Below, piece by piece: positions 15,716 through 17,410 of a DNA stretch of 57,528 bases. Each line of letters opens with the position of its first letter. The stretch's first letter is position 1. The notes below the pieces were generated by a model. That model was not told the DNA's origin. It saw only the letters and a program-made list of their open reading frames with translations, and did not search any database. The position numbers and the translations under genes were made by a program. Location of the stretch: positions 1 through 57,528 of IMG/VR virus record IMGVR_UViG_3300027746_000023; one strand, 5' to 3'. The DNA comes from a virus (Duplodnaviria > Caudoviricetes).

Positions 15716-16174
15716 TTAGAGGCAGCGTTGTGGTTCGCGATTGGGAGTCGAAGACTCCCTATTATTCTTCTCTTCTCTGGTTACGGACTTGTTACGCTCT
15801 GAGCGTAACTTTTCCGTAACGGCATCGTGACCGCGTTTTTTGGCCATTCTTGCGCCTGCAAGCGCCCTATCTTTAGCGGTTTGGCTGTTGTGTCGGTCGA
15901 AGTTTGTGAACTCGATTTTGTCGCCTTTTATGCGAATCCATCCGCAAGTTGCCATCGCTTCGTCGAAGACTCCGCAGCCAGTAATTTCTCGGATGACACG
16001 CAGCGCCGTAACACTTGTTACGCCGTCAGCGTAACAATTCCGTGACGCCCACGCCCAAACTTTCAGAAGCTTCCCGACCACCGTGTCGATGTCCATTTTG
16101 GTCTGGTCAGCAATAGCCGCCACCTCGATCTTTTCGTGCAGGTGGTTTTCCACCTTTATCCATTCTCCAGCCAT
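15716..16174 (-). CDS. Replication initiator-like protein (short)
   Basis: MAGEWIKV, VVGKLLKVWAWA, NFDRHN..TAKDRA; upstream of helicase. Confidence 0.7.
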   Translation of the reverse strand: MAGEWIKVENHLHEKIEVAAIADQTKMDIDTVVGKLLKVWAWASRNCYADGVTSVTALRVIREITGCGVFDEAMATCGWIRIKGDKIEFTNFDRHNSQTAKDRALAGARMAKKRGHDAVTEKLRSERNKSVTREEKNNRESSTPNREPQRCL

Positions 16175-16177
16175 AAG

Positions 16178-16435
16178 TTATTTCATCCTCCTGCGTTCCC
16201 AGCGTTCCACCCTGCGTTCAAATTTCGTCCAGCGCATGTATTCCATGTCTGTCATAGCTCCGTCTTTGTGGAGCCAGTGCGCGAATGCCGATGCCTGCGT
16301 CGCCATGCTCCAGCCGGTTGTGTCAAGGTGGTGCCTGGACTCAAAGACCTCGCACGGCCATTGTTTGAGACGCTGCCGCCAATAGCGGTGCTTTTCCTCG
16401 TTTGGGAGTTTGCCAAAGAGATCGAGTTGAATCAT
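16178..16435 (-). CDS. Hypothetical protein
   Basis: 85 aa in operon. Confidence 0.6.
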   Translation of the reverse strand: MIQLDLFGKLPNEEKHRYWRQRLKQWPCEVFESRHHLDTTGWSMATQASAFAHWLHKDGAMTDMEYMRWTKFERRVERWERRRMK

Positions 16436-16854
16436 TTCAGCGCCTCCAGTCGCATTTTGTCCGCAGGCAGGCCGATGCCTGAGCAGTCTCCGAGTGCTTT
16501 GCAGAGATCGCGGTAAAAATTAGAGTTTAAGAATGCAATCGCGGTGCGTTGGTAGCGTTCGCGGTTGTTTTTGAGATTGTTCCGCAGGTAGTCGCGGTCG
16601 TTTTTCGCGTCGAGCACGGCTTGGCGGATCATGGCGCAGAGCAGCCGCCGGGTATACATGAGTTCGTTGTCTACTTGCTCGTCAGGTGAAATTTGTGGCA
16701 AATCGGGCATGCATATCTTCGCAGACTCTTCTTGCGGTTGCGGCGGGCGAGCCGCACTTCGGCGAGCTTGAGCGCGACCGTGCGCTCGCTGGGGTATGCC
16801 TTCTTTGATAGGCACATGTCCCATATTGTTTCTGGTGCGTATTCTCTCACTCAT
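16432..16854 (-). CDS. Hypothetical protein
   Basis: 140 aa; LLCAMIRQAVLDA; coupled starts and stops. Confidence 0.65.
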   Translation of the reverse strand: MSERIRTRNNMGHVPIKEGIPQRAHGRAQARRSAARPPQPQEESAKICMPDLPQISPDEQVDNELMYTRRLLCAMIRQAVLDAKNDRDYLRNNLKNNRERYQRTAIAFLNSNFYRDLCKALGDCSGIGLPADKMRLEALK

Positions 16855-17042
16855 TTCGTTTTCTTCCCATGGTGGGTCTCGATGTATTTGCGGACGCGCT
16901 CCATATCAGCCTCCGCCTGTTGACGTTCCTCCAGCGCGTAAGTGTGCTGGTAGGCAGGCAACGGCACGCCGCGCTCAAGCCTCGGGCCGATAGGGCAGGC
17001 GTTGGCGCAGATTGCTAGGCGGAGGGTGATTTCAGGGAGCAT
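16851..17042 (-). CDS. Hypothetical protein (MLPEITLRLAIC)
   Basis: Plausible coding part of ORF 16851-17420, downstream of the array. Confidence 0.55.
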   Translation of the reverse strand: MLPEITLRLAICANACPIGPRLERGVPLPAYQHTYALEERQQAEADMERVRKYIETHHGKKTK

Positions 17043-17083
17043 TCTTAGATATTGGTTTTTTGTGTTTTGTGATTTTTTGCATT

Positions 17084-17404
17084 GGTAAACTGCGGCACCC
17101 CGTAAGATGCCGTGTGTTTGCCATGCCCCGCCAAGCCGCGCCCCGCCTAGCCACGCCCCGCCGGGCCTGGCCGCGCCGCGCCGCGCCAAGGCAAACTTCT
17201 GCACCTCCAAAGAGATGCAGTGTGTTTGCCAAGCCTCGCCGCGCCATGCCTTGCCCCGCCGCGCCTTGCCATGCCTCGCCAAGCCGTGTCGAGCAAACTT
17301 CTGCACCTCCGAAGAGATGCAGTGTGTTTGCCATGCCGCGCCGTGCCTTGCCACGCCTCGCCTTGCCATGCCTCGCCGCGCCCCGCCGCGCCTCGCCGCG
17401 CCAT
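17084..17404 (-). ncRNA. Three-unit (GGC-NN)n plus hairpin array, putative guide RNAs (VIPR-like)
   Basis: 5-nt period tracts at 17330-17404, 17228-17292 and 17120-17189, each followed on minus by a GGCAAACACA..GTTT hairpin with compensatory changes. Confidence 0.85.
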
Positions 17405-17410
17405 GAAAAA

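What the first reader, a model, noticed from the sequence alone, without database searches (positions are those of the whole stretch)
17084..17332. Covarying UNCG-type hairpins separate the guide units
Seen on minus: GCAAAC-ACA-CTGCATCTC-TTCG-GAGGTGCAG-AA-GTTTGC (17293-17332); the same with a TTTG loop (17191-17230); and GGCAAAC-ACA-CGGCATCT-TACG-GGGTGCCG-CA-GTTTACC (17084-17122). The third copy changes stem sequence but keeps pairing, uses G-U pairs and keeps a UNCG loop. This points to selection on RNA structure and fixes the transcribed strand as minus. Inference: the hairpins are processing or capping handles; with no Cas6 present, a host RNase or the RAMP itself would cut.
Basis: partly seen in the sequence, partly recalled or inferred. 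Interest (0 to 1): 0.7.

Follow-up and report, generated by a model that had tools for sequence, protein, structure and literature searches.

The report
Hairpin tails of phage VIPR guides
The three hairpins are the folded 3' ends of three guide RNAs of a phage VIPR system, a CRISPR-like DNA-silencing device first described in 2026, so this is a well-supported new example of a known kind.

Summary
Three about 40-nt stem/internal-loop/stem hairpins lie on the minus strand at 17293-17332, 17191-17230 and 17084-17122. Each follows a tract of 15, 12 or 14 GGCNN units, and the array starts 8 nt after the stop of a 186-aa gene.

That gene encodes a Cas7-like RAMP. It is homologous to the Vipr protein of Escherichia phage SUSP1. 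The locus is therefore a VIPR system (bioRxiv 10.64898/2026.04.26.720920), and the hairpins correspond to the structured 3' "tail" of each vrRNA.

A covariance model built from relatives found 103 such hairpins in 30 of 66 sources:
- 97% of cells are paired, against 78% in shuffles and 36-44% with slid partners.
- 11 of 16 pairs show compensatory changes.
- There are 174 G-U cells against 4 A-C cells, which fixes the RNA strand.
- The internal loop ACA/NA and its two flanking C-G pairs are essentially invariant.

The fold differs from the SUSP1 pseudoknot. How the array is cut stays open, and none of the three VIPR papers I searched by keyword addresses it. This scan has already read GGCNN arrays on other DNA as VIPR. 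Verdict: new member of a known kind, modest interest.

The parts
17745..18395 (-). ORF with a T5orf172/MUG113 domain (GIY-YIG-like). It lies directly upstream of vipr and overlaps it. Candidate accessory gene of this VIPR clade.
   Evidence: Pfam PF13455 E 4.6e-09 and PF10544 E 1.1e-07. A homologue lies immediately upstream of vipr in all loci of the 59-94% Vipr clade that reach that far. The ORF has no stop of its own before vipr in 16 of the 17 sequences printed (window + 16 loci; L089 gave no GEWF line).
17411..17971 (-). vipr: 186-aa single-RRM RAMP (Cas7-like), the protein partner of the repeat RNA.
   Evidence: No Pfam family; phrog_4652 of unknown function. Profile hit to PDB 36pp_D 'SUSP1 Vipr protein', E 5.3e-05. 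hhalign against SUSP1 Vipr: probability 95%, E 4e-08, 56 columns. AlphaFold2 pLDDT 91.4. Best Foldseek matches are Csm3/Cas7 of type III and VII complexes, E 4e-06.
17410..17439 (-). Weak sigma-70-like site (TTGGCC-18-AATAAT) whose -10 element holds the vipr stop codon. A possible internal start of the array transcript.
   Evidence: 9 of 12 matches; 2 such sites were found in 3 kb against 1.4 +/- 1.1 in shuffles, so on its own it is not significant. The -10-like hexamer is TATAAT in L011 and L013 and AATGAT in L003-L009, 7-9 nt before the first GGC.
17328..17402 (-). vrRNA 1 guide tract: 15 GGCNN units.
   Evidence: Tract scan; period-5 rows from Tandem Repeats Finder.
17293..17332 (-). Tail hairpin 1. 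Outer stem GCAAAC/GUUUGC, internal loop ACA/AA, 9-bp inner stem, loop UUCG. Its outer stem holds the last GGC.
   Evidence: Fold -20.3 kcal/mol, z -5.06. R1 62.8 bits, E 2.2e-14.
17226..17285 (-). vrRNA 2 guide tract: 12 GGCNN units, 7 nt after hairpin 1.
17191..17230 (-). Tail hairpin 2, the same as hairpin 1 with loop UUUG.
   Evidence: z -5.04. R1 59.3 bits, E 2.2e-13.
17118..17187 (-). vrRNA 3 guide tract: 14 GGCNN units, 2-3 nt after hairpin 2.
17084..17122 (-). Tail hairpin 3, the last of the array. Changed 8-bp inner stem with two G-U pairs, loop UACG, one C.A mismatch in the outer stem. It is followed by about 40 nt of A-rich sequence, not by a U run.
   Evidence: -14.3 kcal/mol, z -3.14. 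R1 54.8 bits, E 3.9e-12. No terminator-like site here.

Best explanation
The hairpins are the structured 3' tails of three VIPR guide RNAs (vrRNAs), transcribed from the minus strand just behind the vipr gene.

Proposed mechanism, by homology with the SUSP1 system:
1. One Vipr protomer binds each GGC of a tract, and the protomers build a helical filament that exposes the NN dinucleotides. These read double-stranded DNA with one base skipped per unit.
2. Each tract ends in a hairpin whose outer stem base-pairs the last GGC. The filament therefore stops there, and the guide register is fixed.
3. The hairpin is a stable stem, mostly with a UNCG-type or GNRA loop. It caps the RNA 3' end and would shield it from 3'-to-5' exonucleases.
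4. The invariant internal loop (ACA opposite NA, between two invariant C-G pairs) is the likely contact point for a protein.

What is shown here: the anatomy, the conservation of structure, the strand, and the homology of the protein.

What is inferred from the published SUSP1 work or from general knowledge: filament formation, capping, protection, and the role of the internal loop.

How the three units are cut apart is unknown.
For: Anatomy:
- Three tracts of 15, 12 and 14 GGCNN units are each followed by one hairpin. There is none before the first tract. The array starts 8 nt after the vipr stop.

The protein is a Vipr:
- PDB 36pp_D 'SUSP1 Vipr protein', E 5.3e-05.
- BLASTP against the SUSP1 ORF, E 1e-07.
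- hhalign probability 95%.
- Cas7/Csm3 fold, from a model with pLDDT 91.4.
- Three SUSP1 residues that hold GGY (thumb R138, stacking W178, R179) align with R133, F174 and R175. All three are invariant in 53 relatives.

Linkage of hairpins to vipr:
- Of 24 IMG/VR loci with a Vipr relative, 12 carry 2-4 hairpin units of this kind right after vipr.
- Another 7 carry one unit with a longer inner stem in the same GGCAAACACA...CAGUUUUGC frame.
- Of 30 sources with R1 hits, 29 have a Vipr-like ORF directly upstream on the same strand, at 26-94% identity. The 30th is cut by a contig end.

Structure:
- 82 distinct hairpins; 97.0% of cells paired, against 78.0% in shuffles (0 of 500 reach it) and 36-44% with slid partners.
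- 11 of 16 pairs changed on both sides; 226 such cells against 61 in shuffles.
- On the MAFFT alignment, which is not fitted to the model, 9 of 14 predicted pairs show double changes.

Strand:
- 174 G-U against 4 A-C cells, so 97.0% would be paired on this strand against 84.0% on the other.

The hairpin belongs to each unit and is not only a separator:
- The last unit of each array keeps it (31 of 90 distinct contexts are terminal).
- Single-unit loci keep it too (L015-L021).

Published parallel:
- vrRNAs are 9-16 YNNGG repeats followed by a conserved structured tail that caps the variable region.
- In cryo-EM the SUSP1 tail caps the RNA 3' end.
Against: - There are no RNA data for this phage, so expression, the RNA ends and binding to Vipr are not shown.
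- The fold is not that of the characterised tail. SUSP1 tails are H-type pseudoknots, and R1 finds nothing in the SUSP1 locus. The cap role is therefore carried over by position, not by likeness.
- Two of the five covariation measures do not stand out from shuffles: pairs with a double change 11 against 9.6 (87 of 500 shuffles reach it), and further pair types 33 against 29.8 (33 of 500).
- Alignment A3 was fitted to the model. 40 of its rows built the model. Most loci were fetched with a pattern that fixes GGCAAACACA. The invariance of the 5' half is therefore partly by ascertainment.
- Copy 3 folds better on the plus strand by energy alone.
- Relatives at about 60% identity use a different tail on upstream arrays with the same Vipr. 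A strict tail-Vipr lock is therefore doubtful.
- No convincing DNA target of the three guides was found.
Confidence: 0.85

Rival explanations
1. The hairpins are above all cutting signals. The array transcript would be cleaved at the base of each hairpin, by a host RNase, by Vipr itself acting like Cas6, or by the adjacent T5orf172-type protein. Capping would then be secondary. This does not exclude the main reading.
For: - The units are packed tightly. In 37 of 59 internal junctions the next GGY tract starts 1-2 nt after the outer stem, so a cut must fall next to the hairpin.
- The internal loop ACA/NA and its flanking C-G pairs are invariant while both stems vary, as expected for a recognition site.
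- No Cas6-type gene is present.
- There is no ribozyme match, although published VIPR arrays of other types use hammerheads between vrRNAs.
Against: - The hairpin is kept on the last unit of arrays (31 of 90 contexts) and in single-unit loci, where no cut between units is needed.
- Nothing here shows a cleavage.
- In the window one linker is 7 nt, and in relatives linkers reach 22 nt.
- Vipr has no demonstrated nuclease activity in the passages I read.
Confidence: 0.3
2. The hairpins are intrinsic transcription terminators or attenuators that set the amounts of downstream early genes.
For: - They are GC-rich stems with stable tetraloops.
- In the 60% clade the single hairpin has a 12-bp GC stem followed by CAGUUUUGC, which could terminate.
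Against: - None of the three is followed by a U run. The terminator scan of 16000-19000 lists no site at 17084-17332.
- Two of the three are followed at once by another GGCNN tract.
- The fixed register with the repeat tract and the invariant internal loop are not terminator features.
Confidence: 0.03
3. The palindromes act as DNA: operator sites for a dimeric regulator, or iterons of the replication origin beside the replication genes.
For: - They lie in the replication/recombination module, between Sak4-like, exonuclease, replication initiator and DnaB genes.
- They are three direct copies about 100 bp apart.
Against: - A strand-asymmetric pairing pattern (174 G-U against 4 A-C cells) is not expected of DNA palindromes.
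- Stem sequences change freely while pairing is kept, whereas a protein-bound operator keeps its sequence.
- The element travels with vipr, not with the replication genes. L010-L013 and L014-L024 have other neighbours.
Confidence: 0.02
4. They are CRISPR-repeat mimics that soak up a host Cas6 or Cas complex (an RNA anti-CRISPR).
For: This is a stem-loop RNA on a phage. From memory only, the motif CACUGC...GCAG resembles a type I-F repeat; I did not test this.
Against: - Every copy sits in fixed register after a GGCNN tract and behind vipr.
- The inner stem sequence is not conserved, whereas a mimic must copy one repeat.
- There is no Rfam CRISPR-repeat match.
Confidence: 0.02

Closest known systems
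vrRNA 3' tail of type II VIPR systems (Escherichia phage SUSP1 clade). Sources: bioRxiv 10.64898/2026.04.26.720920, 10.64898/2026.04.26.720927 and 10.64898/2026.10.15.759431 (sections and passages read).
   Same: - One roughly 40-nt conserved structured element directly after each tract of GGY-NN pentamers.
- One element per guide, on the strand of the vipr gene.
- Arrays of several units next to vipr, encoded by a phage.
- The protein partner is a homologous single-RRM RAMP with the same G-loop.
   Different: - Fold: a stem/internal-loop/stem hairpin here, against an H-type pseudoknot in SUSP1. R1 finds nothing in the SUSP1 locus.
- Repeats are GGC here and mostly GGU in SUSP1.
- Vipr proteins align only over the last 45-56 residues, at 27-29% identity.
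- The array follows vipr directly. The conserved neighbour is an upstream T5orf172-domain gene, not a downstream vap1.
- I could not see which of the seven published types this clade falls in. The figures are not held, and I did not open the supplements.
CRISPR repeat hairpins kept as the 3' handle of crRNAs after Cas6 cleavage (class 1 systems; established knowledge).
   Same: - A stable stem-loop marks the 3' end of each guide unit in a multi-guide transcript.
- The guide is bound by a RAMP filament of Cas7 fold.
   Different: - No Cas6-type gene is present.
- The guide is a pentamer repeat read discontinuously, not a contiguous spacer.
- The unit is about 100-115 nt.
- There is no 8-nt 5' handle.
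- The hairpin's inner stem sequence differs between units of one array.
Hammerhead-ribozyme-interspersed VIPR arrays (types I and V, per the legend of Fig. S19 in 10.64898/2026.04.26.720920).
   Same: A structured RNA lies between successive vrRNAs of an array.
   Different: No ribozyme family matches the region, at Rfam gathering scores or at E up to 10. The element is a simple two-stem hairpin.
3' stabiliser stem-loops of bacterial RNAs, such as REP or terminator hairpins that block PNPase and RNase II (established knowledge).
   Same: A GC-rich stem with a stable tetraloop at an RNA 3' end. 42 of 82 loops are UNCG and 8 are GNRA.
   Different: - Fixed register with the repeat tract, with the last GGC inside the stem.
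- Invariant asymmetric internal loop.
- No U run.

Membership tests
VIPR system (Vipr + vrRNA) | Vipr protein: a small single-RRM RAMP with a glycine-rich loop and a thumb. | tested here: met
   - Profile hit to PDB 36pp_D 'SUSP1 Vipr protein', E 5.3e-05.
- hhalign probability 95%, E 4e-08 over the thumb end, last helix and G-loop.
- AlphaFold2 model pLDDT 91.4, with best matches Csm3/Cas7.
- GGY-contact residues R138, W178 and R179 of SUSP1 align with the invariant R133, F174 and R175. D177 aligns with T173, which is not conserved in kind.
VIPR system (Vipr + vrRNA) | vrRNA guide: 9-16 tandem pentamers with fixed GGY and variable NN. | tested here: met
   Tracts of 15, 12 and 14 GGCNN units on the vipr strand. 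GGC is kept and NN varies in relatives.
VIPR system (Vipr + vrRNA) | A conserved structured 3' tail after each repeat tract. | tested here: met
   One hairpin after each tract. Structure conserved with covariation in 82 distinct relatives. The fold differs from the published SUSP1 pseudoknot.
VIPR system (Vipr + vrRNA) | Encoded mainly by phages and proviruses, in a minimal locus next to vipr. | tested here: met
   The window is an IMG/VR virus record. The neighbours are phage replication and recombination genes. The array starts 8 nt after vipr.
VIPR system (Vipr + vrRNA) | An accessory vap gene that is typical of the type. | tested here: inconclusive
   A T5orf172/MUG113-domain ORF is the only neighbour kept across the 59-94% Vipr clade. 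The words T5orf172, MUG113 and GIY do not occur in the discovery paper's main text. I did not open the vap tables and figures.
VIPR system (Vipr + vrRNA) | vrRNAs are expressed as roughly 100-nt RNAs and co-purify with Vipr. | not testable with these tools
   No RNA holder is listed for this stretch. The one run laid consists of contigs and cannot show RNA ends.
VIPR system (Vipr + vrRNA) | The NN dinucleotides match natural DNA targets under the 1-nt skip rule. | tested here: inconclusive
   - No match beyond shuffled guides in the window or in the loci held.
- Exact scans of IMG/VR with the ten 3'-most dinucleotides gave 0, 1 and 0 hits for the three guides, against 0 and 0 for two permuted controls.
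- The single hit (L092) is in frame in a 132-aa ORF, 20 of 22 bases. That contig shares no protein with this phage.
- Ten metagenome hits for guide 1 are unrelated genes.
CRISPR-Cas array with Cas6-processed repeats | A repeat-spacer array with contiguous spacers, plus a Cas6-family endoribonuclease. | tested here: not met
   The sequence between hairpins is a period-5 repeat, not a unique spacer. Four Cas6-type Pfam families (PF01881, PF10040, PF09618, PF08798) give no match in the record. There is no Rfam CRISPR repeat match.
Intrinsic (Rho-independent) terminator | A GC-rich stem-loop followed directly by a U run. | tested here: not met
   The scan lists no terminator-like site at 17084-17332. 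The flanks are GGCNN tracts or A-rich sequence.

The most novel reading that the evidence does not exclude
The invariant internal loop (C-ACA-C opposite G-NA-G) may be the recognition and cutting site of an activity encoded by the module itself. That activity would be either Vipr acting like Cas6, or the T5orf172/GIY-YIG-like protein whose gene always overlaps vipr. The array would then be self-processing. This clade would show a Cas6-like maturation step already present in the Vipr lineage, which the VIPR authors place before CRISPR. My evidence does not exclude this. The junctions are 1-2 nt in 37 of 59 cases, no Cas6 or ribozyme is present, and the loop is invariant over Vipr proteins of 26-94% identity.
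Probability: 0.12. Interest if true: 0.7.

Novelty: new member of a known kind. Interest (0 to 1): 0.3.

Why it matters
It places a metagenomic phage locus in the VIPR class, which is very young (2026 preprints). It also gives a covariation-backed model of a hairpin-type vrRNA tail that differs from the one solved tail, the SUSP1 pseudoknot.

The model (43 positions, 16 pairs) separates what varies from what never varies. Both stems and the loop vary. The ACA/NA internal loop and its two flanking C-G pairs do not. This points to a concrete site to mutate when asking how Vipr filaments are ended and how multi-guide transcripts are cut. My keyword searches of the main texts of the three VIPR papers found nothing on that question.

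The model can also be used to annotate guide boundaries, and so to read guide sequences in this clade.

Tried and rejected
Searches for known families and relatives
- Rfam, whole window at gathering scores: 0 matches. Region 16950-17500 at E up to 10: only two chance lncRNA rows. So no known RNA family and no ribozyme.
- blastn of 16400-18400 against 50,697 phage records: no match. tblastn of Vipr there: one record, Burkholderia phage vB_E436, 39% identity. Its 14-unit tract lies upstream of vipr and has no R1 hairpin.
- Genome contigs: only 3 loci, a Rhodoferax MAG at 61%, a Planctomycetota MAG and a Woesearchaeota MAG. The host is therefore not settled. R1 finds nothing in them.

RNA evidence
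- No RNA holder is listed.
- The one run offered (X1, wastewater, kept as contigs, probably DNA) was laid. 148 short contigs fit only the repeat region and two spots in vipr, and 99 of them are under 90% alike. They come from other GGCNN arrays and say nothing about RNA ends here.

Targets
- The three guides against the window and about 0.79 Mb of loci held: best 20/28, 17/22 and 18/26, within the range of shuffled guides.
- 112 distinct guides of relatives against all loci: 82 hits with at most 3 mismatches, against 96 for shuffled guides.
- IMG/VR exact scans with the ten 3'-most dinucleotides: 0, 1 and 0 hits. Two permuted controls of guide 2 gave 0 and 0.
- The one hit is L092 6889-6917, in frame in a 132-aa ORF (phrog_32639 E 4.6e-07; tail-fibre-assembly family only at E 0.0099), on a contig of 47% GC. 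No protein of that contig resembles any in the window. I keep it as a lead only.
- Metagenome scan with guide 1: 10 hits in unrelated genes, on contigs of 26-57% GC, matching 20-27 of 30 bases. Only L099 reaches 80%, on a contig of 26% GC.

Readings rejected
- Coding. ORFs 16851-17420 and 17032-17748 run through the array. They are by-products of a period-5 repeat, and the region is not kept as protein in relatives.
- Terminators, DNA operators or iterons, and CRISPR-repeat mimics: see the rival explanations.

Not done
- No structure comparison with the solved Vipr; the Foldseek PDB copy ends on 8 April 2026.
- P. fulva tails were not fetched.
- No R-scape.
- No protein complex job.
- I did not ask for supplementary files. 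Figures S9 and S16-S19 were seen as legends only. The type assignment and the published tail folds of other types may be there.
Full report
**The observation**

Each has four parts:
- a 6-7-bp outer stem (GCAAAC/GUUUGC);
- an asymmetric internal loop (ACA opposite AA or CA);
- an 8-9-bp inner stem;
- a four-base loop (UUCG, UUUG, UACG).

They fold at -20.3, -20.3 and -14.3 kcal/mol, with z-scores of -5.06, -5.04 and -3.14 against 200 shuffles each. No shuffle does as well.

Between the hairpins the sequence is not a unique spacer. It is a period-5 repeat: 15, 12 and 14 units of GGCNN at 17402-17328, 17285-17226 and 17187-17118. The first tract begins 8 nt after the stop codon of a 186-aa gene (17411-17971, minus). 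No hairpin precedes it, so there is one hairpin after each tract. The window holds no other such tract or hairpin.

- Loop 2 is not UNCG.
- Copy 3 has a C.A mismatch in its outer stem.
- Within the window only one pair changes on both sides.
- By energy alone, copy 3 folds better on the plus strand (-16.9 kcal/mol).

**The surroundings**

The window is an IMG/VR virus record of 57.5 kb. The element lies in a minus-strand replication/recombination module. In order, the module holds:
- a Sak4-like ATPase;
- a PD-(D/E)XK exonuclease;
- a T5orf172/MUG113-domain ORF;
- the 186-aa gene;
- the array;
- small ORFs;
- a replication initiator;
- a DnaB helicase.

The 186-aa protein has no Pfam family and only a PHROG of unknown function.

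**Relatives**

A scan of IMG/VR with the protein gave 24 loci at 59-94% identity. Their downstream regions fall into five groups:
- 12 loci carry 2-4 GGCNN-plus-hairpin units of the same kind directly after the gene.
- 7 loci carry one unit in the same GGCAAACACA...CAGUUUUGC frame, with a 12-bp GC-rich inner stem.
- 1 locus (L014) carries units with another tail.
- 1 locus is cut off by the contig end.
- 3 loci have only a terminator.

A pattern made of two GGCNN units plus the start of the tail fetched 61 further stretches.

From 40 distinct hairpins I made a MAFFT alignment (A2). RNAalifold predicted 14 pairs, and 9 of them show changes on both sides.

I then built a covariance model on that alignment with the full two-stem structure (R1, 43 positions, 16 pairs). 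I searched the window and 65 of the 87 loci held at that point. The 22 left out were second copies of the same contigs. The search found 103 hairpins at E up to 0.01, in 30 sources.

On the resulting alignment of 82 distinct rows:
- 97.0% of cells form a standard pair, against 78.0 +/- 0.7% when 3' partners are shuffled (0 of 500 reach it).
- Only 36-44% pair when partners are slid by 1-3 columns.
- 226 cells have changes on both sides, against 61 +/- 10 in shuffles.
- The covariation score is 0.592 against 0.231.
- Two count-type measures do not stand out: pairs with a double change, 11 against 9.6 (87 of 500 shuffles reach it), and further pair types, 33 against 29.8 (33 of 500).

Three caveats apply. 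The alignment is fitted to the model. Forty of its rows built the model. The fetching pattern fixes the 5' half of at least one tail per locus.

**Strand**

G-U cells number 174 and A-C cells 4. The same pairs would therefore be 97.0% intact on this strand and 84.0% intact on the other. The RNA strand is also the strand of the adjacent gene, and it has the GGY-NN orientation of published vrRNAs.

**What varies and what does not**

- Both stems change freely, including between units of one array.
- Loops are UNCG in 42 of 82 rows, other NNCG in 12, GNRA in 8, and other kinds in 20.
- The 5' side of the internal loop is ACA in 89 of 90 distinct contexts.
- The 3' side is CA (64), AA (16) or UA (10).
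- The two C-G pairs that flank the loop are invariant in 82 of 82 rows.
- The outer stem contains the last GGC of the tract.
- In 37 of 59 internal junctions the next tract starts 1-2 nt after the outer stem. The others have linkers of 4-22 nt.
- 31 of 90 contexts are the last unit of an array, and they keep the hairpin.

**Identification**

A profile of 53 relatives (A1) hits one PDB sequence, 36pp_D 'SUSP1 Vipr protein' (E 5.3e-05). A literature search led to four 2026 preprints on VIPR, Viral Interference Programmable Repeat systems.

I read the results, the discussion and two methods sections of the discovery paper (10.64898/2026.04.26.720920). I read passages of the other three. They report the following:
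- Vipr is a small RAMP encoded mainly by phages.
- vrRNAs are 9-16 YNNGG repeats followed by a conserved structured 'tail'. The tail is a pseudoknot in the SUSP1 clade and caps the RNA 3' end in the cryo-EM filament.
- One Vipr protomer binds each repeat.
- The NN dinucleotides read double-stranded DNA with one base skipped per unit.

I fetched SUSP1 (KT454805). Its locus shows GGU-rich tracts with pseudoknot tails.

Its Vipr aligns with the window's protein over the thumb end, the last helix and the G-loop:
- BLASTP E 1e-07.
- hhalign probability 95%, E 4e-08, 56 columns.

Three SUSP1 residues that hold GGY are R138, W178 and R179. They align with R133, F174 and R175, all invariant in A1. D177 aligns with T173.

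The AlphaFold2 model (pLDDT 91.4) matches Csm3/Cas7 subunits best (E 4e-06, TM about 0.5).

The locus is therefore a VIPR system, and the hairpins take the place of the vrRNA tail. R1 finds nothing in the SUSP1 locus or in the Burkholderia phage locus. The fold is thus a different solution for the same position.

**How it most likely works**

Shown here: three guide units of tract plus hairpin behind vipr, a structure under selection, the RNA strand, and homology of the protein.

Carried over from SUSP1: Vipr protomers polymerise on the GGC units and expose the NN bases.

Inferred:
- The hairpin ends the filament, because its outer stem locks the last GGC into a helix. That fixes the register of the guide.
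- The hairpin caps and protects the 3' end. Stable stem-loops block 3'-to-5' exonucleases (established knowledge).
- The invariant internal loop is where a protein touches the tail.

The hairpin is kept on terminal units and in single-unit loci. It therefore belongs to each mature guide and is not only a separator.

**What stays open**

How the transcript is cut is unknown.
- No Cas6-type family is found in the record.
- No ribozyme family matches.
- None of the keyword searches of the three VIPR papers' main texts returned anything on vrRNA maturation. The exceptions are figure legends on hammerhead-interspersed and staggered arrays.
- A weak promoter-like site, whose -10 element contains the vipr stop codon, lies 7-9 nt before the first GGC. 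The hexamer is TATAAT in two relatives. The first 5' end might therefore be a transcription start. The site is not significant on its own.

**Targets and expression**

Searches under the 1-nt skip rule gave no convincing target. One exact in-frame match of guide 2 in an unrelated IMG/VR contig (L092) is kept as a lead. No RNA data exist for this stretch.

**Novelty**

The kind is in print as preprints from April to October 2026. This scan has already read GGCNN arrays on other genomes as VIPR, one of them 'with simple hairpins separating the guides'.

Three things are added here:
- a covariation-backed model of a hairpin-type tail shared by Vipr proteins of 26-94% identity to this one;
- its invariant internal loop;
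- a conserved T5orf172-domain neighbour gene.

I file it as a new member of a known kind. I could not place the clade among the seven published types, because the figures are not held and I did not open the supplements.

Noticed in passing
window 17745-18395 (minus), and the same position in L003-L025 and L089: A T5orf172/MUG113-domain ORF is the one neighbour that stays directly upstream of vipr across the 59-94% Vipr clade, while all other neighbours change. In 16 of the 17 sequences printed (window + 16 loci; L089 gave no GEWF line) it has no stop before vipr and reads on for 224-260 nt inside vipr in another frame. The A7 run at the junction is kept only in the closest relatives. Possible explanations are overprinting, a shifted fusion, or a by-product of vipr conservation. 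I cannot tell which.
   Followed up: partly
L014-L024, about 300-900 nt upstream of vipr (for example L018 3-77 plus tail, L023 2382-2689): Relatives at about 60% identity carry further GGCNN arrays upstream of the T5orf172-vipr pair. These have a second kind of tail: GGCAAC.ACGAG, a covarying 5-bp stem, and a conserved 11-nt loop GGGCGG(N)AACA. One Vipr would then serve two kinds of tail.
   Followed up: no
window 17410-17439 (minus); L011 and L013 just after the vipr stop: The vipr stop codon sits inside a -10-like hexamer: AATAAT here, TATAAT in L011 and L013, AATGAT in L003-L009. It lies 7-9 nt before the first GGC, with a -35-like TTGGCC inside the conserved FGR codons. This could be an internal start for the array transcript.
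   Followed up: partly
L001 3877-3946 (Burkholderia phage vB_E436, PQ789831): The only cultured-phage relative (Vipr 39% identical) has a 14-unit GGY tract that ends about 25 nt before the vipr start codon. It has no hairpin of the R1 kind.
   Followed up: no
L092 6889-6917 (minus): [quoted passage not shown] The dinucleotide inside the tail stem also matches, and the 5'-most one does not. Two permuted controls gave no hit. It is a lead, not a target.
   Followed up: partly
window 17118-17402, run X1: A wastewater run holds well over a hundred different short contigs made of GGCNN-like repeats that fit this tract only loosely (99 of 148 are under 90% alike). Arrays of this kind appear to be common and diverse in that sample.
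   Followed up: no
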